Part shown: one piece after another, positions 1 to 64,000 of the stretch
Position numbering within the stretch: position 1 is the stretch's first letter
How the letters are laid out: every line of letters starts with the position of its first letter
Assembly (NCBI GenBank): GCA_000004985.1
Contig: GG738876.1
Origin: Naegleria gruberi
Lineage: Eukaryota
Reading direction: 5' to 3' (one strand)
DNA: 64,000 nucleotides
Translations under genes and position numbers: made by a program
Notes under the pieces: generated by a model
What the model was told of the DNA's origin: nothing
What the model saw: only the letters and a program-made list of their open reading frames with translations
The model's database searches: none

Positions 1-1369
1 TGGAAGGTTGAGATGAAGATTTTTGTAAAATTAAATTAAAAGAACGAGATACAATTTGAATAGAATGCTTAGAAAAGAAATCCAAATCAATATCACTTGA
101 TCCAAAAATCCAAGAAAATATTCTTCTATTGATAGAGACATCTCCCTTTTCAATTAATAATAATGCAATACTACAAATACTTGTCAATTGTTCCATTGTA
201 AAAATAGTTGACGATTCCTCTACAACTTTATCCAACGTAATAAATGATGAAAGAATTTCTAAAGATGCCCGTTGTGCCATGACATTATTATCATTTAAAC
301 TTGTTATAATTGCTTGTGATACAATTTCAATAGATTCTCCAAATATTGGTGAATGAGCATTAAGAGTTTGTTCATTTTCTATTTTTGCCAATTATCGAAC
401 TGTTGAGAATATAAAAAATCTACTCACTTTTTAAACAATAAATTATATAATTAAGTCCTGAAACTCTAAAAAATGGTGTCGAAAGTATGCCTTTCCAAAG
501 AGATTTGAAAAATAGTTCCTGATCACTAATATTTCTCAATGTGTTCATGATTTTCAGTGTCTATAATGTTAAGCACTTATAGTATTCGAAATGAAAACCT
601 ACTCGTTTGTAAATATCACTTCCTTCCTCTTCCAATGCCGATAATAGTACAAGAATTAAACCAGACAAGCATGGTAAAAGAGATTTTCCTAAAGGCAAAT
701 AATAAGTCTCGATTAAATCTAAAATTACAGGCTTTGTGTTTTGTCAATTATTTAAAAAATTAAATTAAATTCCATACCTTGATTTGAGAAGAAGCACTTG
801 GAAAGAGTGTAAAAATTCCAGAACTATACAAGTGAATATCTCTTGCCAAACGTTTTCCCTGAATAGAATATAAATTTCCATATGATACTTGCTCCAAAAT
901 TCAATACACTTACAGTAATTAATTTTAAAATTTCCTCATATGTTTCCAATGTTTTCAAATGAACTCCTCCAGGTAGAGCAGGATTTAAACATTGAGCCAA
1001 TCTTTTACAAACTGTAATTTTTTCAGGAAGAATGTGAAGTTGAGCGTTCTTGGTCAAGACTTTTTTCATCTTTTGAAGACACTTGATCAAATCAGCCCAT
1101 TCCCTAGTATTATCAAATGATTTTAATACGGAAATGATATCCTCTCGATAGGATTTAAATTTACTATTTTTCATAATTTGTTCGTCTTGAATATCGGGAT
1201 GTTCCTCCTCCGAATTGATGAGTGGTGAGAGTGTAATTTGTTGTGTGCTTTCAATTCTAGGCATGTTTGGAGATGATGTTGTTGATGATGATAATGTCGA
1301 TTTTGATTCAGTAGAATTGTCGGCTACCAAATCCCCAAAGCCAAGATTTTGAGAGAGGCTTTTAAACAT
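1..1369 (-). CDS. DOP1: DOP1 (Dopey) family protein, N-terminal part. The gene is multi-exon and runs off the window start. First exon about 911..1369, 55-nt intron at 856..910, next exons below 855.
   Basis: The translation 'SYREDIISVLKSFDNTREWADLIKCLQKMKKVLTKNAQLHILPEKITVCKRLAQCLNPALPGGVHLKTLETYEEILKLI' matches the conserved Dopey N-terminal motif (..SEWADLIS.L.KL...L.......LP.[28 protein letters not shown].I). Downstream minus-strand exons continue the match (GKRLARDIHLYSSGIFTLFP.., ETYYLPLGKSLLPCLSGLILVLLSALEEEGSDIY) after GTAAGT and GTATGG introns. Confidence 0.8.
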
Positions 1370-1721
1370 TTTTTAAATAGTTAATTAGTTGAATGGACAT
1401 GTTGGTCACAATGTGTTACGGCCCTGCTTGATTCAATGTATAGCAGTTTTTACTCTACGTGTATTCCTTCGACGTGTCAATTGAGTAAATAACATGTACT
1501 GAGTAATTTGAATGCCTCTGACGGTTTGTTGCTTGAAATTTTGCTGCAGTGTTTCCAAATGATGACAAAAATATTCATTGTAAAAATACTGGTCACCCAA
1601 ATTTTTTAAAATTGTTTCCGAAAAAAAATAACACAAGTGAGTATTGCTACTATCATGCTTTTTTTTTAACCTCTTTGTTTTTCAACAACAATAACTTATT
1701 GTTCCCTTCAATATAAGAAGA

Positions 1722-2192
1722 ATGAGCTTGGTTGTCGTTCAAGAAGAAAACTTCAAGGAATTGTTGCGTTTGTTCAACACTAACATTGAAGGTAGAAGAT
1801 CCGCACTCTATGCCTTGACCTCTGTTAAGGGTATTGGTAGACGTTTCGCTGGTATTGTCTTGAAGAAGGCTGAAATCGAACTTACCAAGAGATCTGGTGA
1901 ATTGAGCGAAGAACAAATCAACAAGATTCAAGATATCATTCTTGCTCCAGAAAAGTACAAGATTCCATCTTGGTTCTTGAACAGAAGAAGAGACTGGAAG
2001 AGTGGTGCCACTGAACACTTGGTTGCCAACGCTGTCGATATGTACTTGAGAGAAGATTTGGAAAGACTTAAGAAGATCAAGTCTGAAAGAGGTTTGAGAC
2101 ACATGTGGGGTCTTAGAGTCAGAGGTCAACACACCAAGACTACTGGTAGAAGAGGTAAGACTGTTGGTGTCAGCCATAAGAAACGTGGATAG
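1722..2192 (+). CDS. RPS18: 40S ribosomal protein S18 (uS13). Single exon, 156 aa, TAG stop.
   Basis: Near full-length identity in pattern to eukaryotic RPS18: 'RVLNTNI(D/E)GRR', 'KGVGRR(Y/F)A', 'YKIPDWFLNR', '[28 protein letters not shown]'. Confidence 0.95.
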
Positions 2193-2307
2193 GTCCCCTA
2201 ATTTAAACACAAATAAAAAAACATTATTTCATAAATTTTAACATTTTTTTAAAATTATTTATGAAATTTATGTTGTTTTAATTCCAAAAATGTCAATAAA
2301 CTATTGG
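2193..2307. repeat. Copy A of a ~110-bp AT-rich dispersed/tandem unit (gtcccctaatt[t/a]aaacac..aataaaaaa..tttcataaatt..aacattttt..aattcca[aat]aatgtcaataaactat) immediately after the RPS18 stop. Contains AATAAA.
   Basis: Direct sequence comparison of four copies at 2193, 2359, 2470 and 5529. Confidence 0.8.
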
Positions 2308-2344
2308 TATTTGGTTTCTTAAAATTGGCACTGTACGAGCTGTA

Positions 2345-2412
2345 AGAAACGTGGAAAGGTCCCCTAATTTAAACACAAATAAAAAAACACAAATAAAAAA
2401 ACATTTTTAAAT
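2345..2412. repeat. Copy B, a truncated copy. It begins with a near-duplicate of the last 12 coding nt of RPS18 (aagaaacgtggaaag vs aagaaacgtggatag), followed by gtcccctaatttaaacacaaataaaaaaaca.
   Basis: Seen directly. Duplication of the RPS18 CDS end plus its 3' UTR start. Confidence 0.8.
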
Positions 2413-2421
2413 TTACTAGTT

Positions 2422-2590
2422 CTACGGTACTCAATTTGCCAATGTAATAATTTACTGAAAAGTGGATAGGTCCCCTAATTAAAACACTAAAAAGCAATTT
2501 CATAAATTTGAACATTTTTAAATTCCATTAATGTCAATAAACTATAGTGGTGTAAGGCATTAGTTTCTGAACCAATCCATTGGCGAATTG
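2422..2590. repeat. 23-bp inverted repeat (ctacggtactcaatttgccaatg at 2422-2444; cattggcgaattgagtaccgtag at 2568-2590; 1 mismatch) enclosing copy C. Hairpin/MITE-like structure.
   Basis: The reverse complement of the right arm equals the left arm except for one t/c. Confidence 0.75.
2456..2546. repeat. Copy C. It again starts with an RPS18-end-like 'gaaaagtggatag' and then gtcccctaattaaaacactaaaaagcaatttcataaatttgaacatttttaaattccattaatgtcaataaactatag.
   Basis: Seen directly. Most similar to copy D at 5529. Confidence 0.8.
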
Positions 2591-2804
2591 AGTACCGTAG
2601 AAAGAGTTTCAAACGAGTCATTTCTAGGTTTTCACAACATGATGGCTTTTCAAAATGGACCATCCATCTTTAATTTCCAACTGTTAATCCAAAGCGATCT
2701 GATTTACTGTTTTGGTTGGCCAACAATAAAAGCCTTCTACATGATTCAAAGAGCATTGAGAATGAATTGGAATTTTATAACGTTGCAACGAGAATAGTTG
2801 GTTA

Positions 2805-2975
2805 CTCAATACACCCCCACGGTCAAAATAGCCCTAGTGTTTGAACAGTATTACCGTAGTTCCTCTGGTTTATGAGACCGTCTCAACAACCTCTTACAAA
2901 ATGTCATAGAGACAGAATATCGGAACTACAACTTTTCGCTATTTTGAAATTTAATGGGTAATGGGGTGTATTGGA
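2805..2975. repeat. 11-12 bp perfect inverted repeat (caatacacccc at ~2807-2817 / ggggtgtattg at ~2963-2973) flanking ~145 bp. The palindromic motif taccgtag recurs at 2584 and 2853 (reverse complement at 2423).
   Basis: Seen directly. Confidence 0.5.
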
Positions 2976-3359
2976 AAACAAACAAATATTGGATACTACC
3001 AAATTTAAACAATGGACAAACGAACAAGTTTGCTCCTTGTTTTGCATATCAGCTTCTTTTGTACTGTCGACAGCTTTGAAAACTTGCCCTTGTTGTCGGG
3101 TGCAAATGATCTTCTTTTACAATATTTTACATTGTTGTTTACCTTGTCGTGCACGACAACCTAAAATAAATTTTAAAAAAAAATGCTCAAAAACTATGAA
3201 TTATCAGTCTAATCAACAACTATGAATTATCATTCTACTCTTCAACTTTCGGACCATTTCAGAATAATGTATTTTTAAAGACTTTTTCAGCATTTCGGAA
3301 AGACTATAAATACTGAAGGGAGGGTTTCGAATTGTCTTTAAAAATTATTCAAATATTCA

Positions 3360-5519
3360 ATGCCTAAACAACCTTGTTCATCACAAAGGAATGGTAAAAC
3401 TAGCCTTGAAACGGATCAAATTCTCTTGGAATATTATTTAATTCATGGAAATTATTTGAATATCAATCAAAGTAATGCCGACTATCATTTTACTAACTCT
3501 CAATCGAAACAGAGATGGAGAAGAATGAAGGAATGTTTTACAAATAGAGTCATTCAATCCAATCCTTCTACCAATACAACACTGCACAAAATTTCTCTCC
3601 TTTATCCTAATCTGAAAAAGACCATTCTCTTTTCAATTACTTTAAATGATGAGGAGAAAATTATTGAATCAACTCGAAAAGAAATTGCTATCAATCCACC
3701 ACCCATTCAACAAACTCCATATAATAGAAAGGGTGTCTCTACCTTTGAAATTCATCCCGACTCTGAAACTATCAAACAATATTTCCAAAACTTGTTACAT
3801 AATCAAACTCATGTCAAGAAGGTTTCACTCAAAGAAATCAATGCAATTTGGGCTGAAATTGGTTTTGCTCATTACAAGAGTAAAAACACTACAAATAGTG
3901 AACCTGTCATTGCTGCTCAACTTTGTTCATTGAATGGAAAATCGTATGAGAGTGTCAAACAATCGTTCAAAGTTCATAGCAAACTCTATCACAAGAAGGA
4001 AAAGTGTTCTCAGTGTATGGGATTTGCTTGCTTTAATTATTCCATTCTTTGTAAAGGATGTACCTATTTGAAATTAATTGATCATGATCCAGTTATTTGG
4101 ATTCAAAAAACAGCTAATCCCAAAAAAATAGAATGGACCTTTACACTTTCCAACTGTAATAATTTGAATTATACTAGTCTTTTTAATTTGAAATACCCAG
4201 TTGATGATATTCAAAGTAACGACCTGTCAATTCAAAGTGATAAACAAGATGAAATGTCAATTCAAAGTGATGAAAACGGCTGTGACAATTATGAGGAAGA
4301 TGAAATGATGGATGAAACTAATGTAACTCAATCAAAAGAAAGTAATCAATCCATTCAAGAACGAATTCAAACATTTTACACTTCCTGTCATGATTATTGT
4401 AATATTTTTCAAGAAGAATTTAATGGTTTTCAAGAGTGGAAACCAAAATTTCAAAATTATGAACCACCCCATACTGCTCATCAATTAATGAATCAAGCTA
4501 TGGTCAGAAATCGAAACTTGTTGAAACTATTACCTCTTGAGGAGAATTACAATTTTATTTGGATTCAAAATGGTTCTGAAAAGAAACAATATTCTCAATG
4601 GATTGAATTGATTGAGAAGAATTTCAAATTGAAAACTCTTGATAATTTTAATGCAACAGATCCAATTATTTATGTCATGATATTTATTTTCAAAAAGGAT
4701 TATCAAATGGAACCAATGATTCAAATTGGTGAAAGTGAAAATTATCAAAAGAGAATGAATGGTTACAAATATGACAGTTCAGATCGATTGATCAATAGAG
4801 CCTTTAGTAAGGCCACATTAATTTTTAGTTGTCCTCTAGAGATTCAAGCTGATACACCCATACGTAAATTGAAAGAAACCTTTTATATTTGTCAATTGTT
4901 GGAACAAGCATTTCATCCTCTCAATAGCAATTTTAGTGATCCTGATAGTGTCAATCGCTTACATTCCATTTTTGATGGTAAAATTAATTTCTCAACATTG
5001 GATAGATTGAATTATTCAAGTTTTAACACTTCTCTCAAACTTTTACATCTTGATTCTGATGCTAATAATACCATTCATATTGAGAAGGGAAATTATGTGA
5101 TTGAAAGTAATAATCAAGTAGTATTGAGAAAACCATTTATATTCATGTTGGAAAGAGAGAAATTCAAACACTACTTTCCTCATGCTCCTCAAAAATTGTT
5201 GAATGCCTTTAACATTGCCTCAATCAAGTATCAAGGATTGAATAATTTATTGTATGACAATGATGAGTTGTACAAGGAGGAATACTTGCCAAAATGTTTT
5301 GGAATAATGAATAGAATTGTTCATCCCAAAGGTTTTGGCAAGTATTTGCGCTTTGATTTTCCAAGTGCATGTCTTGAATATGAAAATGGTTTTTATCCCA
5401 TTTCCTTCCTCTCTATTCGATGCAATTATGAACAAGTCATTAGAAAGGTCATTATGAAAAATACAATCATGAAGGATTGTATCTGCATTAACGATGTGGA
5501 AGATGATAATTTCATCTAA
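3360..5519 (+). CDS. Hypothetical 719-aa protein with no recognisable domain. It has a Cys cluster (CSQCMGFACFNYSILCKGCTYL) and an acidic repeat (SIQSDKQDEMSIQSDENG).
   Basis: Long uninterrupted ORF with ordinary codon usage. It is flanked upstream (2456-2790) and downstream (5529-5658) by copies of the same repeat unit. Confidence 0.55.
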   Translation: MPKQPCSSQRNGKTSLETDQILLEYYLIHGNYLNINQSNADYHFTNSQSKQRWRRMKECFTNRVIQSNPSTNTTLHKISLLYPNLKKTILFSITLNDEEKIIESTRKEIAINPPPIQQTPYNRKGVSTFEIHPDSETIKQYFQNLLHNQTHVKKVSLKEINAIWAEIGFAHYKSKNTTNSEPVIAAQLCSLNGKSYESVKQSFKVHSKLYHKKEKCSQCMGFACFNYSILCKGCTYLKLIDHDPVIWIQKTANPKKIEWTFTLSNCNNLNYTSLFNLKYPVDDIQSNDLSIQSDKQDEMSIQSDENGCDNYEEDEMMDETNVTQSKESNQSIQERIQTFYTSCHDYCNIFQEEFNGFQEWKPKFQNYEPPHTAHQLMNQAMVRNRNLLKLLPLEENYNFIWIQNGSEKKQYSQWIELIEKNFKLKTLDNFNATDPIIYVMIFIFKKDYQMEPMIQIGESENYQKRMNGYKYDSSDRLINRAFSKATLIFSCPLEIQADTPIRKLKETFYICQLLEQAFHPLNSNFSDPDSVNRLHSIFDGKINFSTLDRLNYSSFNTSLKLLHLDSDANNTIHIEKGNYVIESNNQVVLRKPFIFMLEREKFKHYFPHAPQKLLNAFNIASIKYQGLNNLLYDNDELYKEEYLPKCFGIMNRIVHPKGFGKYLRFDFPSACLEYENGFYPISFLSIRCNYEQVIRKVIMKNTIMKDCICINDVEDDNFI

Positions 5520-5528
5520 TATATGTGA

Positions 5529-5658
5529 GTCCCCTAATTAAAACACGAATAAAAAAGCAATTTCATAAATTTTACCATTTTTTATTTTTTTAATTTTTAT
5601 TTAATTCCATAAATGTCAATAAACTACAGATAATTGGAATTTTATAACGTTGCAATCA
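5529..5658. repeat. Copy D of the repeat unit, directly after the stop of the 3360..5519 gene. It includes the tail 'ttggaattttataacgttgcaa', which is also present at 2768-2789.
   Basis: Seen directly. Has AATAAA at 'aatgtcaataaac'. Confidence 0.8.
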
Positions 5659-7163
5659 ATATTGAAAAATCTCCTTCTCAACTTTCATTTTTTGTAAAAT
5701 AACACCTTTCAGAATGTATCATGGTGTGCAAGTCTTTATTTTCATCTAATATTTATGATATTATTTTTAATTCCATTTTTAACAGAGAGGATAAACCCAA
5801 TAATCCATACGATTTAAATAAAAAAACCATATTTAAAAATCAAATAATCATTTCGAATTGCTGCCGGCACAAATGGTGACAAAAATTGCTGGAAGCCACT
5901 GTATTCCCATCGAGATTGCTAACAAAATTTGTAGGAGCCATCTACTCAAGTCAATTTTCAATACCCTGTTTCAACAAACAGTCATTATTCTTTTCAGATT
6001 GGAGCAAGTCATTGATTTTTAAATATCTTGTTTTGCTATGAATTGTTGACTGTTATTGTGATTGCTGACTGTGAGGATTAATATGAACAATACGAATTGC
6101 TAAATTCTAATAATCCAATTAAGGGAAATGGGATAGATTGAATGGTAAGTTCCATTAACATGTCTCAATTCACCACGTATTGTCTCAATCATTTATTGTC
6201 TTATTACATTAACTAAAAAACTACTCCTCATCAGAGCTTGGCTTACAGAGAAATACTTTTTATCAATTAATTTTAATCCAGTAAGTGTTGAACTAATCTC
6301 TCCAGATATTAAATTCCATTTAACTATTTTATTGTGTTTCCATTTTTTGAAATTGTTTCTAGAGATGATTCCATTGGGAGAGAAAGTAAGGAGTGTTTGG
6401 ATTTGTGATTGTTAATGCCTTTTTCATTAAGGTTAAAAGTGTTGGTTCATTTTCTTAATTTTATTTAAAAAAATGAAACAATCCGAATGCATGTCTTTAT
6501 CAAGAAACGATGAACACTTTTTCCAAAGGAATTTGAAGCAATTCGTAAATTTTTGAGTGAAAATCAGTCAACATATTTATCTGGTTTTTATGAGCTGGAA
6601 ATTAGTATCGAAAAATCTCAGTATTTCTTTAAATGAAAAACAATGAAAAAAAGTGATTATCGTAAGATAGCCAATTTGAAGTTAAGAGCTGGGTAAGAGC
6701 TGCCGATGAATTGAGAGAATGTGTCAATAATTTTCCAAGCTCCAATAACATTAATAATAGAGAGGATTTCTTCAAGTATCGATTAAATTGGTTAATGTCA
6801 ATTGGTAATGACAATTTATATTTTGATTGTAGTGTTGAACTTGGCGAAAATATTAAATAAAATTAATACTGATATTTATATACGCAATGGTTATTCAAGG
6901 ATATATAATGTTTGCAAATTCCAATGATATGGATGATGCATTTAATTGTGAAGAATTTCACAAAACAATAATATTAACGATACTGACATCAATATTTTTA
7001 AGGCAACAGTCTTTTCATTTTTTTAATTCGATCGAATTTATCGATCTTTGAAAAGATTTATTTCAATTCTATTGATTGCATTGACGTTAACAGAGATAAT
7101 CTGGCAAAGTTGATTAATTTTAATTATTTTATTTTCAATTTTAACAATTTTTCAAAACTTAAT

Positions 7164-9076
7164 TTACCATCCGTAAAGTCCCTTACCAACACGAACCTTT
7201 TCTAAATAATCTTCAAAATCCTTCTTCAAATAAATAGGCATAACACCACGCATAGCAGCATCTCTATCAACAGATCTAAGTTGATCAACACACTTGAAGA
7301 AAGCAGGAATGACGTTCAAAATATTTCTACTACCATAGAGTCTGACAGAACAGTATTTAAGACCCAAATAAGCACACAACTTTCTTAAAATTGGATTGGC
7401 AGTTGGTTGTTCCTTAGTACTAGGGTGAATTCTGACTTTACAAGCACCAAACTTGGCTTCGAGCATATGAGAACGTGGAATGCAAGCAGAAGGATCAATA
7501 CTTCTAATATTCTTATAAGCAGCCTTTCTTGCCTTTGATTGAGCAACTGCTGGACTGGCAGCTGTACCAAAACCAACACCACACAATCCACTGTAACTTC
7601 CTACCAAGTACAAACAATTGTATGATTCAACTCTACCACCAGTGGTCATTTTACAATTTCTTGAAAGCTTGAGAACCTTTTCTTCGAATGAAACATCTGT
7701 AATAGCATCCTTTTGACCGTGATAAATTTCTGGATCTTCAACATCATCAGCAAGTGGGTGAGTAATTGCTGGTTCACCTTCATATTCATAAAGTGATTCA
7801 TCCCAATCAGCATCAAGATCAACATCTCCAAAGTAACCCTTTTCAACACCAACACTAGCATTATAAATTGGATTAACACTAACATTAGTCTTGGATGACT
7901 TTCCCTCTATGATTGATTCTAAATTTTGGATTTGTTGTCCAAGTTGTGTTTCATCAAATTGATATAAATAGAAAGGAGCTGATGTTTCATCTCTTTCTTG
8001 TCTTAACAGCTTAGTGTTCAATGATTTAATCATATCGGATTGATCAACCTTTGAAACTTTGAATCTCTTTCCTTGCAATTTACCTAAATTTTCAACATCT
8101 TGAGAAACACGTTCAAATGACTTTGGAACTTGAATTCTTTCAGGATCAGCTTCATTCTTTTCTTCAATTAATTCATGGAATCTAGAGTAATCTTTTCTAA
8201 CTCTTAAAGCTTCTTGTAATTCATTAATTGGTATGTTTTCATCGACATCCTCAATATCTATAGTATCAATTTCATTTGACCCAACTTCTTCTTCATCTTC
8301 AATTTCTTCCATTTGTTCATTTTCATTATCCTCGTCTTGATCTCTTCTTGAGATGTTATCTTCATCAACCATTTCATCTAAGTCATCCAAATCGGCTTGA
8401 GTCTTTAATTTACTCAAATCATATAAACTTTTAACTTTGAATCTGTTATATTCAGTTTCGGCAGGTTGAGAAAAAGTACCAGGGAACATTCCAAAGTTAG
8501 TATATTTAGCCCAAATTCTTTCCTTTTGTACAGCTCTTGGTAATTGAAGGTTAACGTTGGCTTGTAAGAGACTCAAACTAATAAAGGCTTCCTTGATTTT
8601 TCTTACAAGTTTTGTTTCCTTCTTTTCGGTAGCGAGCCAATAAACAACTTTATGTCTCTTTTCCTTACGCAAATTCTTGAGGTAGAAGACAAGAGTTTCA
8701 AACATTTCTTCAGTGAATTTAGTACCTTGTTGTTTTGCTTCTATAATATTGATAAACTAGTTATAAAATTATTATTGTTGTTGTTTAACATTATTTTGAG
8801 AGCGATAATATTACATACGTCTTTATCATTATCTGTTGTTGGGAAATTTAATTCTTCGGCAGGAATTTCTCTATTTCTTTCTTTTTCTTCCATTTGTTTA
8901 AGTTCGCTATCACTAATTCTTTCAAAAGAATTTTTAATGATTTTACTTGATGAAAAGCATCGGCTTTGAATATATGAAGGAGAGTTGTGAATTGAAGAAA
9001 AACAAAGAGGTGATTGCTTGGTGGCCAACTTCTTAGTTGAAGAAGGGAGCTGGCGCAAAAGTTTAATGTTTCTCAT
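7164..9076 (-). CDS. MRPS5: Mitochondrial ribosomal protein S5 (uS5m). Two exons: 8820..9076 and 7164..8754, with a ~65-nt intron at 8755..8819 (GTATGT..CTAG). N-terminal mitochondrial presequence.
   Basis: C-terminal 'GRVESYNCLYLVGSYSGLCGVGFGTAASPAVAQSKARKAAYKNI...KVRIHPSTK...SVRLYGSRNILNVI' is the S5 dsRBD and C-terminal domain pattern. The first exon 'MRNIKLLRQLPSSTKKLATKQSPLCFSS' is basic/hydroxylated and presequence-like. Reading frame is maintained across the proposed splice. Confidence 0.8.
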
Positions 9077-57898: not shown

Positions 57899-60516
57899 TC
57901 ATTTACTCATATCAATGGAAATATCATCAGTGAGGGTTTGGGTGCTGTGTGTAGAGATAGATGAAATACTCTCTCTTATCTTTTTGATAGCAAAGTCTAG
58001 TAAACCAACGATTGGAAAATCAAGCCATATTTTCTCATCATTATTCATTTCGTTTGTCCATAGAATCAATCTTTGAAGGAGGAATGATTTTTCTTCACTA
58101 GAAATTTGGGATGGATTAGTAAGGCATTTGGAGAGCTCTTGCCTTAGTTCTATCCTCTCTTTATCACATGGTTCAATATAGATTGGTAAAGTGAGCATTG
58201 AGACAGACTCTCTAAATTGGTTTCCTAATTCAAAGTGTTGGACATAGTACCTTCTTGGTGAGTTAGAATCAATGGCCCAGTAAAGGGTATGCGTTCCCTC
58301 TAAGCCTTTGAGCTCAAAATTACCCATATTATCAAAGTGAATCTGTCCATCTTGGACTAGTTCTTTAAATTGCTCTAGTTCGTCTTTGAAAGTCGTAATA
58401 AAAGGAGTATCTTTAGGCAGACTATTGGTAGATGAAAGAGCTGTGGCGCGGTGCTTAATAAAACTTTGGACATCTGAACTGACATATACTCTACCACCAT
58501 GTGATTTGCTTTCAGTTCTTGCAGCTTGGTTGACTGCAGTGCCAAAGTAATCATATCTCTTGGTGGTTGGGTCAAATTGGGATTCAATTTCTTTTCCAAA
58601 GTGAACGCCCATTTTAACTCTTGGTCCTTTGTAAATAATTTCATTATTCCACTTGACTTCTTTCATGTCTGGAAATTCCAACATTTCAGGTGTCCAATGT
58701 CCTTTCAATAAGCCGTTTTGAATAGCAAAACAGCAACCTAGTGCTTCTATTGGATCATTGAATGCGATCATAAAACTGTCTGATTGGGTTTTCACTTCAT
58801 ATCCTTTAAACTTTCGAATATTTTCTCGCACTATTCTATGGTGAATGGCCAATACTTTCTTCATCAAATCTGAATCTAAAGTCCACATTAAGGATGAATT
58901 TTGTATGTGAGTGAAAACAATGCAAATAGGAGCTACTTTTGGAGCTAGACGATTTTCTCTCTTTCTAATCGAATTCTTTCTAACAACCCATCCAATCAAG
59001 AACACAAAAATTCCAACCAATAATATTGCAATAGTAAAACTGACAACACTGATGGAAATAATGAATTCGTTTCTCTTCTCAATTGGTAATACAGGCTCAG
59101 CAGTCCAAGCTTTCCACTTGGCTGTATTGTTTGGGTTTGATAACCACTTACAAGCAGCATCTTCTAAAGTCATTGAATTGTAAGCAACATATCCCATCAT
59201 GGTTACTTGATCTCTACCTCTATAATTCAAATTTTTAAGAAAGTTTTGAACACTTGAAGAGAGAGAAGAGACAGCACTCGTTTGGAGCTTACTATATGTT
59301 GACAAAGGGTAATCACAATCAACCAATCCATTGGCAATATTGTGAGCTGTATGACAGCTATCAGTAAATTGAGGAAGATAGATTCTAGATGGTGGATTAG
59401 GTCTACTGAATAATTGATGTGGAAACCAAAAATATGAAACCATCTCTTTTCGTTGTTGTTGAGCGTTTTGTAAATTTTCAATGAGATAGGTTTCAGTATC
59501 ATTATCAGGTGCATATTCCAACTGCAAATTCAACTTTAAATTCTTGATAATCTGATCATCATAATTCACCCAAGTTTTAGAGCCACTGACCATTCTTGTC
59601 ATGTTTGAAAGTCTAAAGTATCTGTAGTTATTTTGAACTGCATCCTTCATGAAATTTGGAATGAAAAACCCAATTTGGCCACTCGGACCCAAATCGCCAA
59701 TGTCTGTAATATGTTTACCATTAACCACATATTTTCTAAGATGAAAAGATTACTTGTTAGAAAGATCAGCGCATGCACTTACTTGTAATTTTCAAAGTTA
59801 GATAATTTCCAGTATTCTAACAACGCAATTGGACGTGTGGCTCCTTCCTTTTCCATAAGTTCCAAAGAATCCACAATATTTAGTTTTAAAATATCAACGC
59901 AAACTCCTAATTTTTCCTCGAGTATTATTGTTGCAAGAGCATTATTCATCGAGCTCGCCAGCCAATTATTTTCAATAAGAGTTATTCTTGGTGAAAAAGA
60001 GGAACAGTGGCTTGAAGATGCATCTTCAGGTAGACAACTGGCAACTGTTTTTCTAGTCGACGAAATATGTTGATACTGATGGGTTTGCATGTTTTCCAAT
60101 GGCGATCCACTCACAAAATAATAAGTTTCGTAATCGTGATTGTCAAGCTTATCAGCACCAATAAACATGCTAATAACAAATACAAAAAGTATTAATTTTG
60201 TGATAATGGATAATCTGGACCGTTTCCAATAATGTAATCCAACAAAACTACTACTACTAATATTCCTCGTAATCATAATATTCAATATAAAATAGCAAAT
60301 CCACCACATAATTCTCGAATCAAACATGATAAAATCACAATATGAAATTTCATCCATTTGTATTTCAAACTTTCTTTGATTAATCGTGTATTCATCATCT
60401 CCTACTTCTTGTTCATTCCGTCTTCCCTCCAGAAGCAGCATTAATACGTTGTTGTTGCCAGCACAAGTTGTATCGGAAAGAACATGTTTGCCCATTTTTT
60501 TTCGTTCTCTCGTCAT
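57899..60516 (-). CDS. Receptor-type class III adenylate/guanylate cyclase. Order from the N-terminus: signal-anchor/TM, extracellular OpuAC/ProX-like substrate-binding domain, TM, cyclase catalytic domain, C-terminal tail. Two exons: 59783..60516 and 57899..59735, with a 47-nt intron at 59736..59782.
   Basis: Cyclase core 'ICIVFTHIQNS...YEVKTQSDSFMIAF...GPRVKMGVHFG...YDYFGTAVNQAARTES' fits the class III motifs (F.DI.GFT, GD, G.H.G, N..R). The extracellular part 'ITLIENNWLASSMNNALATIILEEKLGVCVDI...LLEYW...YFWFPH' resembles PF04069 OpuAC (type II PBP). TM 'FIISISVVSFTIAILLVGIFVFLIGWVV' precedes the cyclase domain. GTAAGT donor is in phase. Confidence 0.75.
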
Positions 60517-62370: not shown

Positions 62371-64000
62371 TTATGCTCCAGATTGAATCAATTCTTCAGG
62401 GCATGACATTACTGCGATAGAACTAGAAGAAGAAAGCGACTCTTTTCTACAGGGTTGAGCGACACTATTTCGTCTTTTCCTGTTATCTGGACGGATAATT
62501 GTATCTTCATATGCATATTCTTTGTTATCTGAAACAATGTTATCCATTTCAGCAGGAAGATAATGAGAGATGACAATTGGTATGAGATGCTTCAATTCCA
62601 ATTCAGTCCATGCATCCTTTTCTTCTTCGGTATCATTATTCCACAATACAAGCCTATGCAGAAGTTTACTCTTCTCATTTTCATTCCATTTCGATGGATC
62701 ACTTATACATGATGCACACGATTGTTTCAATTCCATTCGTTCCTTATCAATTTTCTCTCTCAACAATGGAACTGATAATCCAGAGTCAATTCTAACATGA
62801 GGCAACAATTCGAATTGTTGAATGTAGGAAGTTCGAGGGGAAGTTGTATCCATAATCCAAAACAAAGTGTGATTACCTTCCAATCCTTTCAAAATAAAGT
62901 TTCCCATATTTTCGAATTGGATTTTTCCAGAGTAAAGCAATTGTTTGAATTGAAAGATTGGATCCTTATGAATGGGAAACCCCTTATCCATGCAAATATT
63001 GCAACGAGAAGCTCCTCCCATTTGATGCTTTAGGTGGTCGTGAATATTTGAGCAAATGTAAATTCTTCCTCCTTGAGCTTGATTTTCAGTTCTAGATGCT
63101 TGGTTGACCGTCGTGCCAAAGTAATCATATCTCTTGGTGGTTGGATCAAAATGAGCTTCCACTTCACTGCCATAATGAAGGCCCATTCTAACTCTTGGTC
63201 CTTTGTAAATAATTTCATTATTCCACTTGACTTCTTTCATGTCTGGAAATTCCAACATTTCAGGTGTCCAATTTCCTTTCAACAAATCATTCTGAATAGC
63301 AAAACAACAACCAATTGCTTCTATTGGGTCACTGAAGGCAATCATAAAGCTGTCTGATTGAGTTTTCACTTCATATCCTTTAAACTTTCGAATATTGTCT
63401 CGAACAATTTTGTGATGAATGGTAACAACTTTCTTCATCAAATCTGAATCCAAAGTCCACAACAGTGAAGCATTCTGAATATGAGTGAAAACAATGCAAA
63501 TAGGTGGTGCTTTTGGGGCCAATCTATTTTCTCTCTTTCTAATCGAATTCTTTCGAATGCAAAATCCACAGCAAAAAACACAAAAACCAATTAGTATAAT
63601 AGCAAGTGTAAACCCCACAACAGTCATTGAAATAATAAAGGCATTACTCTTCTCCGGTTGAAAAGGTGGCTCTGAAATCCAACTCTTCCATCTCTCTGTA
63701 TTATTGCCTTTCAAAATCCAAGTACAGGCAGCATCCTCTTTCGACATTTTATCATACGAAACTAAGCCTAACAGTTCAATCTGGTCAGCATTCGTCAGTT
63801 TCATCCTTTCCAAAAAGTTTTGCACTTTTTCAGGAAAACTCAACACTGCCCTAGTTTGCAGTTTACTGTAAGTAGTCATGGCAAAATCACAATCCACCAA
63901 ATTATTCTCCACATTGTGAGGTGATACACATTCTGCAGTAAATGGTGGAAGTGTCACACGTTGTGGAGCATTAGGTCTACTGAATAATTGATGAGGTGTG
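62371..64000 (-). CDS. Second receptor-type class III cyclase, a close paralog of 57899..60516. It is partial, and its N-terminal extracellular part continues beyond the window end.
   Basis: Protein is collinear with the first cyclase (same TM, 'ICIVFTHIQNASLLWTLDSDLMKKV', 'YDYFGTTVNQASRTE'). There are stretches of >60 bp nucleotide identity (for example tcatgtctggaaattccaacatttcaggtgtccaat in both). The end of the OpuAC-like region is visible at 63650-64000. Confidence 0.75.
   Translation of the reverse strand, partial: TPHQLFSRPNAPQRVTLPPFTAECVSPHNVENNLVDCDFAMTTYSKLQTRAVLSFPEKVQNFLERMKLTNADQIELLGLVSYDKMSKEDAACTWILKGNNTERWKSWISEPPFQPEKSNAFIISMTVVGFTLAIILIGFCVFCCGFCIRKNSIRKRENRLAPKAPPICIVFTHIQNASLLWTLDSDLMKKVVTIHHKIVRDNIRKFKGYEVKTQSDSFMIAFSDPIEAIGCCFAIQNDLLKGNWTPEMLEFPDMKEVKWNNEIIYKGPRVRMGLHYGSEVEAHFDPTTKRYDYFGTTVNQASRTENQAQGGRIYICSNIHDHLKHQMGGASRCNICMDKGFPIHKDPIFQFKQLLYSGKIQFENMGNFILKGLEGNHTLFWIMDTTSPRTSYIQQFELLPHVRIDSGLSVPLLREKIDKERMELKQSCASCISDPSKWNENEKSKLLHRLVLWNNDTEEEKDAWTELELKHLIPIVISHYLPAEMDNIVSDNKEYAYEDTIIRPDNRKRRNSVAQPCRKESLSSSSSIAVMSCPEELIQSGA

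What the first reader, a model, noticed from the sequence alone, without database searches (positions are those of the whole stretch)
2193..3360. Reiterated rpS18 3'-end/UTR module and hairpin-forming inverted repeats downstream of RPS18
Immediately after the RPS18 stop, the last ~12 coding nt plus the first ~45-110 nt of 3' UTR are repeated three times (2181-2307, 2345-2412, 2456-2546; 'aa(a/g)cgtgga(t/a)aggtcccctaatt..'). Each copy carries AATAAA-like signals. Copy C is enclosed by a 23-bp inverted repeat (2422-2444 / 2568-2590). A further 11-12 bp perfect inverted repeat lies at 2807/2963. This looks like serial duplication of a 3'-end processing module or a MITE-like insertion that captured the gene end. 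The ORF track does not explain it.
Basis: seen in the sequence. Interest (0 to 1): 0.6.

Follow-up and report, generated by a model that had tools for sequence, protein, structure and literature searches.

The report
Reiterated RPS18 gene-end copies in Naegleria
In the amoeba Naegleria gruberi, the tail of ribosomal protein gene RPS18 (its last codons, stop codon and short 3' UTR with poly(A) signals) has been copied four times nearby, and one copy now sits directly behind an inserted gene with no known relatives; this looks like a local DNA-rearrangement scar, not a new kind of element.

Summary
The repeats are real and far beyond chance. The window is Naegleria gruberi NEG-M. RPS18 (1722-2192, +) is followed by its native 3' UTR (copy A, to ~2333) and two truncated head-to-tail copies that still carry the last 13-16 coding bases: B (2343-2413) and C (2455-2547). 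C is split by a ~217-nt interruption; its tail is an exact 24-mer (2765-2788 = 5632-5655). A 30-nt, 27/30 inverted repeat (2415-2444 / 2578-2607) brackets C and is the best inverted repeat in the 64 kb. The 11-nt repeat at 2807/2963 is chance-level on its own.

In N. fowleri, RPS18 and the convergent mitochondrial-S5-like gene lie 118 nt apart. Here they lie 4971 nt apart, so the whole block is lineage-specific.

Best reading: DNA-level tandem duplication and template-switch repair at the RPS18 3' end, with copy D reused as the orphan gene's poly(A) region. A MITE is not supported (no target-site duplication, no other copies in the window). A homing-endonuclease-like cassette remains a low-probability alternative.

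The parts
1722..2192 (+). RPS18 (uS13) coding sequence, single exon, stop TAG at 2190-2192; = N. gruberi EFC42921 / XP_002675665
   Evidence: Pfam PF00416 in homologues
2177..2333 (+). Copy A: last 16 coding nt plus the native RPS18 3' UTR and downstream flank. AATAAA at 2212-2217 (20 nt after the stop; probably the site used) and at 2295-2300
   Evidence: Similar to the N. fowleri RPS18 3' flank at the same offset, P = 0.006. nhmmer 2179-2332, E 2e-34. AATAAA positions
2343..2413 (+). Copy B: 16 coding nt (stop TAG changed to AAG) plus the proximal UTR. Contains a 14-nt tandem slippage duplication (2371-2403) that doubles the AATAAA, and a ~20-nt deletion between ACATT repeats relative to A. 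The profile match extends to ~2431
   Evidence: (97.9% to A over 47 nt)
2415..2444 (.). Left arm of the 30-nt inverted repeat. It lies in the tail of unit B; its inner half (AATTTGCCAATG) aligns in register with the tail of unit A (AAATTGGCACTG)
2455..2547 (+). Copy C, part 1: 13 coding nt (GAAAAGTGGATAG) plus UTR. Proximal AATAAA lost, distal AATAAA at 2536. Closer to D than to A
   Evidence: E 2e-23
2548..2764 (.). ~217-nt interruption of copy C, origin unknown, no target-site duplication. Contains the right arm of the inverted repeat (2578-2607), a 27/30 inverted copy of the unit-B tail 134 nt upstream
2765..2788 (+). Copy C, part 2: exact 24-mer AATTGGAATTTTATAACGTTGCAA, identical to 5632-5655 (the tail of copy D)
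2797..2983 (.). ~187-nt imperfect palindrome with nested short inverted repeats (outer arms 2807-2817 / 2963-2973). Weak; possibly a fold-back remnant, possibly nothing
3187..3312 (+). Presumed promoter region of the orphan gene: 26-nt tandem repeat x2 (3187-3237) and TATAAATA at 3305-3312, 48 nt before the ATG
   Evidence: sequence only; function inferred
3360..5519 (+). Orphan gene NAEGRDRAFT_68992 (EFC42922, 719 aa). No homologue in any database searched. Only a sub-threshold T5orf172 (GIY-YIG clan) hint at aa 438-479
5529..5655 (+). Copy D: nearly full-length copy of the RPS18 3' UTR module, starting 9 nt after the orphan gene's stop. AATAAA at 5548 (29 nt after the stop) and 5618. Presumed poly(A) region of the orphan gene
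   Evidence: E 2.5e-34
7164..8705 (-). Main exon of the convergent mitochondrial-type ribosomal protein S5-like gene. It marks the far side of the expanded spacer
   Evidence: PF00333, PF03719; synteny with N. fowleri and W. magna

Best explanation
This is a lineage-specific DNA rearrangement scar at the 3' end of N. gruberi RPS18.

A ~160-nt segment was duplicated head-to-tail at the DNA level. It runs from the last ~16 (possibly ~35) coding bases, through the stop codon and the short native 3' UTR with its two AATAAA signals. The mechanism was probably replication slippage, unequal exchange, or template switching during break repair. The result was a small array (A, B, C, D).

The copies then decayed through:
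- a 14-nt slippage duplication and a microhomology deletion in B;
- loss of one AATAAA in C;
- a ~217-nt filler insertion in C, which includes a 30-nt inverted, templated copy of nearby sequence and creates the hairpin-capable inverted repeat.

A 2.7-kb segment carrying the orphan gene NAEGRDRAFT_68992 lies between C and D. Copy D therefore abuts that gene's stop codon and most likely serves as its cleavage/polyadenylation region.

RPS18 mRNA itself most likely ends about 15-20 nt after the first AATAAA (2212), giving a 3' UTR of about 40-45 nt. On that reading B and C lie beyond the mature transcript and are at most back-up terminators.

Shown: the copies, their order, orientation and relationships, the absence of the block in relatives, and that the module is natively RPS18's. 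Inferred: the duplication mechanism, which poly(A) sites are used, and the co-option of D.
For: - Organism and genes are identified exactly.
- Four collinear same-strand copies, and nothing else like them in 64 kb.
- B and C begin within 3 nt of each other in the RPS18 coding end, and the 27 nt upstream of B and of C match in register (15/27, P = 0.002 per register). This is the head-to-tail organisation expected of a tandem array.
- A is similar to the N. fowleri RPS18 3' flank (P = 0.006), so the module is native to RPS18 and D is the derived copy.
- C and D share derived characters, and they become collinear through the 24-mer once 2548-2764 is removed.
- Synteny: Dopey(-) / RPS18(+) / mitochondrial-S5(-) is conserved. 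The RPS18-to-S5 spacer is 118 nt in N. fowleri, 581 nt in Willaertia magna and 4971 nt here, and neither relative has repeats of the gene end.
- The right arm of the inverted repeat is a 27/30 inverted copy of sequence 134 nt away, and no homology extends beyond it. That is typical of templated filler DNA.
- N. gruberi-specific substitutions in the RPS18 coding sequence are clustered: 7 of 18 fall in the last 28 nt, all synonymous, permutation P = 0.002. The three relatives have none there. This points to an unusual mutational history at exactly this gene end.
- N. gruberi uses AAUAAA 15-20 nt upstream of cleavage, with a median 3' UTR of 39 nt (PMC11529991). That fits the AATAAA at 2212 for RPS18 and at 5548 for the orphan gene.
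Against: - No transcript data could be consulted, so poly(A) site usage and the roles of B, C and D are inferred.
- The origin of the 2.7-kb orphan-gene segment and of the 217-nt interruption is unknown.
- Junction microhomologies are only 2-3 nt and do not discriminate between mechanisms.
- The tail homology between units A and B is significant only when anchored in register, not in a free local alignment.
- The all-synonymous substitution cluster at the coding end is not what conversion from a neutrally decaying copy predicts. It needs either a locally raised mutation rate under purifying selection or a functional donor sequence.
- The rest of the N. gruberi genome could not be searched, so a dispersed repeat family cannot be excluded.
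Confidence: 0.6

Rival explanations
1. Selected fail-safe terminator array. After a same-strand gene (NAEGRDRAFT_68992) came to lie downstream of the very highly expressed RPS18, extra copies of the RPS18 poly(A) module were retained because they stop read-through transcription from interfering with the downstream promoter. The origin would be the same as in the best explanation, but B and C would be functional.
For: Seven AATAAA hexamers lie on the + strand between the RPS18 stop and the orphan gene's ATG, five of them inside copies A, B and C, against a window average of 1.3 per kb. The block AATGTCAATAAACTA is identical in A, C and D. The gene order changed from convergent (N. fowleri) to tandem.
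Against: C has lost its proximal AATAAA and B lacks the distal block. An invariant run of about 15 nt among copies that are ~80% identical is not clearly beyond chance (my estimate, not formally tested). The copies show indels and decay typical of neutral sequence. There are no expression data.
Confidence: 0.15
2. Mobile endonuclease-gene cassette, analogous to the 'mORF' elements of fungal mitochondria. On this reading NAEGRDRAFT_68992 is, or was, a GIY-YIG/T5orf172-type homing-like gene that inserted at a break near the RPS18 stop codon. The reiterated gene ends are the repair products and carried copies that keep RPS18 intact.
For: The only Pfam signal in the orphan protein is T5orf172 (GIY-YIG clan) at aa 438-479, E = 0.044. 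Copies of the host gene's end flank the ORF on both sides (C upstream, D downstream). The copy start points coincide within 3 nt near the stop codon. The RPS18 coding end carries a cluster of purely synonymous lineage-specific changes, including a TCT-to-AGC serine switch, which resembles the divergent-but-synonymous 'inserted C-terminal' of mORF gene hybrids (PMC3630166). The insertion is absent from N. fowleri and W. magna.
Against: The T5orf172 score (14.7 bits) is below Pfam's cut-off of 20 and covers only a third of the domain. There is no support from PHROGs, NCBIfam or PDB searches. The structure model is unusable (pLDDT 30). The protein has no homologue among 5.8 and 1.8 billion proteins and no paralogue in the window, which is unlike a mobile gene. 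All four copies share the N. gruberi-specific GTCCCCTAA motif, and no 'native-type' (AAG AGA GGA TAA) end is present. Only 13-16 coding nt are duplicated. The nuclear setting is unprecedented.
Confidence: 0.08
3. MITE or fold-back transposon that captured the RPS18 end. The 193-nt segment 2415-2607, bounded by 30-nt terminal inverted repeats, would be a non-autonomous DNA transposon whose internal sequence is copy C.
For: 30-nt, 90% inverted arms 133 nt apart, the best inverted repeat in the window, with a strong fold. Size and lack of coding capacity fit a MITE. A second ~187-nt palindromic segment lies nearby.
Against: There is no flanking target-site duplication; the best candidate is a 4-nt match that requires trimming the arms. 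There is no second copy of the arms in 64 kb or in IMG/VR. Copy C continues beyond the right arm: its tail is at 2765-2788, so the arms do not delimit the copied unit. The left arm aligns with the tail of unit A. No paper in the searched library mentions both Naegleria gruberi and 'miniature inverted-repeat'.
Confidence: 0.08
4. 5'-truncated retrocopies of the abundant RPS18 mRNA, or an assembly artefact.
For: Each copy starts in the last codons and runs into the 3' UTR, as severely 5'-truncated cDNAs would. RPS18 is presumably very highly expressed. The genome is an older Sanger draft (from my own knowledge).
Against: There is no poly(A) tract at the end of any copy, no target-site duplications, and the copies lie in tandem right beside the parent gene. 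A and D extend well past the likely cleavage site. Against an artefact: the copies differ by substitutions and indels (78-98% identity) and have unique flanks, which collapse or mis-joining of reads does not produce.
Confidence: 0.04

Closest known systems
Local tandem (segmental) duplication with later decay, and templated or inverted filler DNA from template-switch break repair (MMBIR/FoSTeS, polymerase-theta end joining); named from my own knowledge
   Same: Head-to-tail same-strand copies with a common register. Slippage duplication and microhomology deletion inside copies. A short inverted copy of sequence about 130 nt away embedded in filler of unknown origin. A raised substitution density next to the rearrangement.
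   Different: The duplicated unit straddles a stop codon and a complete poly(A) module, and one copy ends up as the 3' flank of an unrelated orphan gene. Junction microhomologies are too short to prove the mechanism.
mORF gene hybrids in fungal mitochondria: mobile LAGLIDADG or GIY-YIG ORFs flanked by duplicated C-terminal ends of atp6, atp9, cox2 and nad3 (PMC3630166; also cob and atp6 in PMC6279837)
   Same: Copies of a host gene's 3' end lie on both sides of an inserted ORF. The in-gene end is synonymous but unusually divergent at the nucleotide level. The insertion is present in one lineage and absent in relatives.
   Different: This is a nuclear, not an organellar, locus. Only 13-16 coding nt plus the UTR are duplicated. 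The ORF has no confirmed endonuclease domain and no relatives. No 'native' versus 'foreign' pair of ends can be distinguished.
MITEs and fold-back elements
   Same: A ~190-nt non-coding segment bounded by 30-nt inverted repeats and able to form a long hairpin.
   Different: No target-site duplication and no other copies detectable. The arms do not coincide with the borders of the copied unit, and one arm looks like part of the tandem unit itself.
Tandem or alternative poly(A) sites using canonical AAUAAA signals in N. gruberi (PMC11529991)
   Same: Each copy carries AATAAA. The first signal lies 20 nt (RPS18) or 29 nt (orphan gene) after the stop, matching the species' short 3' UTRs (median 39 nt).
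   Different: Here the multiplicity comes from duplication of the whole module, coding end included, not from independent signals within one UTR. Usage has not been tested.

Membership tests
Tandem segmental duplication (head-to-tail array) | Two or more adjacent same-orientation copies with similarity beyond chance | tested here: met
   A, B and C are adjacent, all on the + strand, E values from 1e-12 to 1e-34
Tandem segmental duplication (head-to-tail array) | Common register: the tail of one unit abuts the head of the next | tested here: inconclusive
   The 27 nt upstream of B and of C match 15/27 in one register (P = 0.002, about 0.02 after 9 registers), but a free local alignment of the tails is not significant
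MITE / non-autonomous DNA transposon | Terminal inverted repeats | tested here: met
   30-nt arms, 27/30 complementary
MITE / non-autonomous DNA transposon | Target-site duplication flanking the inverted repeats | tested here: not met
   no flanking direct repeat at the arm ends. The best is a 4-nt AGTT match that requires trimming the arms
MITE / non-autonomous DNA transposon | Multiple dispersed copies in the genome | not testable with these tools
   None in the 64-kb window and none in IMG/VR.
LINE-mediated processed retrocopy | 3' poly(A) tract, target-site duplication, unlinked insertion site | tested here: not met
   No A-tail at any copy end, no target-site duplication, and the copies are adjacent to the parent gene
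Free-standing homing-endonuclease gene / mORF cassette | ORF with a recognised homing-endonuclease domain (LAGLIDADG, GIY-YIG, HNH, His-Cys) | tested here: inconclusive
   Pfam T5orf172 (GIY-YIG clan), E = 0.044, 14.7 bits against a cut-off of 20, covering only profile positions 4-34 of 101. Nothing in PHROGs, NCBIfam or PDB. AF2 model pLDDT 30
Free-standing homing-endonuclease gene / mORF cassette | Duplicated host-gene 3' end on both sides of the ORF | tested here: met
   C (2455-2547 plus 2765-2788) lies upstream and D (5529-5655) downstream of the ORF. The coding part is only 13 nt in C and is not recognisable in D
Free-standing homing-endonuclease gene / mORF cassette | Related ORFs at other sites or in other genomes (evidence of mobility) | tested here: not met
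   No homologue at E <= 0.001 in 5.8 billion or 1.8 billion proteins. No paralogue in the window
Canonical eukaryotic poly(A) module (N. gruberi type) | AAUAAA at a short distance after the stop, with cleavage 15-20 nt downstream | tested here: met
   AATAAA at 2212 (A), 2378 and 2392 (B), 2536 (C), 5548 and 5618 (D). Species rule from PMC11529991. Actual cleavage sites were not testable

The most novel reading that the evidence does not exclude
NAEGRDRAFT_68992 is a degenerate or highly divergent GIY-YIG/T5orf172-type nuclease gene that invaded the nuclear genome at a break next to the RPS18 stop codon. It would be a nuclear counterpart of the mitochondrial 'mORF' cassettes. The reiterated gene ends, the coincident copy start points and the burst of synonymous changes in the last 28 nt of RPS18 would then be footprints of repeated cleavage and repair, or of a carried replacement gene end.
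Probability: 0.07. Interest if true: 0.8.

Novelty: new member of a known kind. Interest (0 to 1): 0.3.

Why it matters
As it stands, this is a well-resolved case of how a short eukaryotic terminator module can be multiplied by local rearrangement and then reused by a newly arrived, taxonomically restricted gene. That is a small but concrete data point for how orphan genes acquire 3'-end processing signals in compact protist genomes.

It also flags an annotation issue. The real RPS18 3' UTR is probably only about 40-45 nt, and copies B and C should not be mistaken for exons or a long UTR.

It would matter much more if the orphan gene proved to be a nuclease-encoding mobile cassette targeting a ribosomal-protein gene end. 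That has not been described for a nuclear genome, to my knowledge.

Tried and rejected
1. Exact-protein look-ups of RPS18 and the orphan gene to obtain other assemblies or transcript contigs: not on record.
2. Metagenome scan with the 18-mer GTCCCCTAATTWAAACAC: 17 loci, all chance matches with no extended similarity. IMG/VR scans: no hit for the inverted-repeat arm and one chance 18-mer hit.
3. Extended inverted duplication (whether the 217-nt interruption is an inverted copy of unit B): not significant beyond the 30-nt arm.
4. A fifth degenerate copy at about 5694-5805, including a 19/22 match of the orphan gene's end at 5737-5758: marginal (P about 0.04) and not found by the profile search. 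Not counted.
5. Rfam and tRNA scans of 1400-7300 and of the window: nothing. The hairpins are therefore not a known RNA family.
6. The bacterial promoter/terminator scan is irrelevant for a eukaryote and gave nothing above shuffles.
7. Structure prediction of the orphan protein without an alignment: pLDDT 30, unusable, so no fold search was run.
8. Supplementary 3' UTR tables of PMC11529991 are not held in the library. No paper mentions the orphan gene's identifiers.
9. Gene conversion from a decaying copy as the cause of the substitution cluster at the coding end: disfavoured, because all 7 changes are synonymous.


Full report
**Identity of the window.** The RPS18 protein (1722-2192, +) and the 719-aa ORF at 3360-5519 are exact matches to Naegleria gruberi NEG-M proteins EFC42921/XP_002675665 and EFC42922/NAEGRDRAFT_68992. 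The nearest other RPS18 sequences are from uncultured Naegleria (97% and 89%), N. fowleri (88%) and Willaertia magna (87%). The window has about 32% G+C.

**Checking the observation.**
- Reading the sequence and the repeat finder confirm three same-strand copies of the RPS18 end.
- The 19-mer GTGGAWAGGTCCCCTAATT occurs three times, against 0.02 expected.
- BLAST gives 97.9% over 47 nt for 2177-2223 vs 2343-2389, and 84% over 69 nt for 2180-2248 vs 2457-2519.
- B contains a perfect 14-nt tandem duplication (2371-2403), and its stop codon reads AAG.
- The inverted repeat around C is 30 nt, 27/30 complementary (2415-2444 / 2578-2607). It folds at -60 kcal/mol (z = -7.2) and is the best inverted repeat in the 64 kb.
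- The 11-nt perfect repeat at 2807/2963 is at chance level: 42% of shuffles of the region contain one at least as long. The surrounding 2790-2990 does have nested arms and folds with z of about -3.6 on both strands.

- Directly after the stop codon of the 719-aa ORF (TAA at 5517-5519) lies a fourth, nearly full-length copy of the module: 5529-5637 vs 2193-2314, 78% over 122 nt, E 2e-21, and 87% to copy C.
- An exact 24-mer (2765-2788 = 5632-5655) forms the tail of D.
- When 2548-2764 is removed, C plus this 24-mer is collinear with D. C is therefore a complete unit split by a ~217-nt interruption.
- C and D share derived characters: AATTAAAACAC, AGCAATTTCAT and AATTCCAT-AATG. A and B form the other pair.
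- A profile built from the four copies finds nothing else in the window or in any fetched locus.
- A window-wide self-BLAST shows that this is the only short local repeat system in the 64 kb.

**Context and polarity.**
- In N. fowleri the order is Dopey(-), RPS18(+), mitochondrial-type S5(-), with 118 nt between the two stop codons. In W. magna the spacer is 581 nt. Neither has repeats of the gene end.
- In the window the same flanking genes are present: Dopey_N at 824-1369(-) and S5 at 7164-8705(-). The spacer, however, is 4971 nt.
- The whole block (array, orphan gene and 1.5 kb of non-coding DNA) is therefore derived in the N. gruberi lineage.
- Copy A is significantly similar to the N. fowleri RPS18 3' flank at the same offset (P = 0.006). 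The module is therefore natively RPS18's, and the copy behind the orphan gene is secondary.

**Array organisation.**
- B starts at the position equivalent to 2177 and C at the position equivalent to 2180.
- The 27 nt upstream of B and of C match in one register (15/27, P = 0.002 per register). This fits a head-to-tail array in which the left arm of the inverted repeat belongs to the tail of unit B.
- The right arm is a 27/30 inverted copy of that tail, embedded in the interruption of C. No homology extends beyond it.
- Neither the segment bounded by the inverted repeat nor the interruption has a target-site duplication. Junction microhomologies are 2-3 nt.

**An unexpected extra.**
- Of 18 N. 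gruberi-specific substitutions in the RPS18 coding sequence (sites where three relatives agree), 7 fall in the last 28 nt. All are synonymous (permutation P = 0.002). The relatives have none there.
- The gene's only AAA lysine codon, a CGT arginine codon, an AGC serine codon (TCT or TCA in relatives) and a TAG stop (TAA in all relatives) all sit there.
- This marks the gene end as having an unusual mutational history that coincides with the duplicated segment.
- It fits mutagenic repair or a raised mutation rate next to rearrangements, filtered by purifying selection. Indel-associated mutagenesis is a known phenomenon (from my own knowledge).
- It argues against conversion from a neutrally decaying copy.

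**Function.**
- N. gruberi uses AAUAAA 15-20 nt upstream of the cleavage site and has a median 3' UTR of 39 nt (PMC11529991).
- AATAAA lies 20 nt after the RPS18 stop (2212) and 29 nt after the orphan gene's stop (5548).
- I infer that RPS18 mRNA ends near 2232-2240, that B and C lie beyond the mature mRNA, and that D provides the orphan gene's 3'-end signals.
- None of this could be checked against reads.

**The orphan gene.**
- It has no homologue in 5.8 billion clustered proteins (word-indexed search) or in 1.8 billion representatives (exhaustive phmmer), and no paralogue in the window.
- Its composition is host-like (GC3 0.27).
- The only domain hint is T5orf172 (GIY-YIG clan) at aa 438-479, E = 0.044 and below Pfam's cut-off. 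PHROGs, NCBIfam and PDB searches do not support it.
- The single-sequence AlphaFold model is unusable (pLDDT 30).

**Comparison with known systems.**
- The best fit is ordinary DNA-level tandem duplication plus template-switch filler.
- The arrangement 'host gene end / ORF / host gene end' resembles the mORF gene hybrids of fungal mitochondria (PMC3630166; PMC6279837). The defining features of that class are not met, however: there is no confirmed endonuclease domain and no relatives of the ORF. All copies also share N. gruberi-specific motifs, so no foreign versus native pair of ends exists.
- A MITE fails the target-site duplication test, and its copy number could not be tested.
- Retrocopies fail on poly(A) tails, target-site duplications and location.
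- Misassembly is unlikely, given diverged copies with unique flanks.

**Verdict.** The feature is real and statistically solid, and is now more completely described. It is most likely a lineage-specific rearrangement scar in which a duplicated RPS18 terminator was co-opted by an orphan gene. Interest is modest. The one reading that would make it important, a nuclear homing-like nuclease cassette, is possible but weakly supported (about 7%).

Noticed in passing
window 3360-5519 (+): NAEGRDRAFT_68992 is a 719-aa intact ORF with host-like composition but no detectable homologue anywhere (5.8 billion and 1.8 billion protein searches). Its only domain hint is a sub-threshold T5orf172/GIY-YIG match at aa 438-479 (IIYVMIF...IQIGESENYQKRMNGY).
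   Followed up: partly
window 2165-2192 (+): 7 of 18 N. gruberi-specific substitutions in the RPS18 coding sequence cluster in the last 28 nt. All are synonymous and include a TCT-to-AGC serine switch and a TAA-to-TAG stop change (P = 0.002). The cause is unexplained.
   Followed up: partly
window 2193-2201 (+): The G+C-rich GTCCCCTAA directly after the RPS18 stop is absent from the N. fowleri UTR but perfectly conserved in all four copies. Its TAA is in frame, so TAGGTCCCC could be a 9-nt insertion in front of an ancestral TAA stop.
   Followed up: no
window 5656-7163: About 1.5 kb of apparently non-coding, N. gruberi-specific DNA lies between copy D and the 3' end of the mitochondrial-S5-like gene. 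It has no ORF of 62 aa or more (the longest is 61 aa). It includes a 19/22 match to the last bases of the orphan gene at 5737-5758 and a 35-nt, 77% inverted repeat at 5809/6012.
   Followed up: partly
window 5281-5346 (+): A 23-nt, 87% inverted repeat with a 20-nt loop lies inside the orphan gene's coding sequence. It gave the only (insignificant) Rfam hit, to a plant miRNA family.
   Followed up: no
window 3187-3237 and 3305-3312: A 26-nt tandem repeat (2 copies, 92%) and a TATAAATA box lie upstream of the orphan gene's ATG. This is probably its promoter.
   Followed up: no
window 58510-59422 and 63084-63996 (-): Two paralogous genes, 76% identical over about 920 nt. They encode membrane-anchored proteins, which I took on reading the translations (no family search was run) to be receptor-type nucleotide cyclases. 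They are the only other repeat in the window.
   Followed up: no
L003/L004 (ENA metagenome contigs), 678-862: The closest RPS18 relative (97% protein identity) has an unrelated 3' UTR and no S5 gene end within 185 nt of the stop. The region downstream of RPS18 therefore differs among close Naegleria lineages too.
   Followed up: partly
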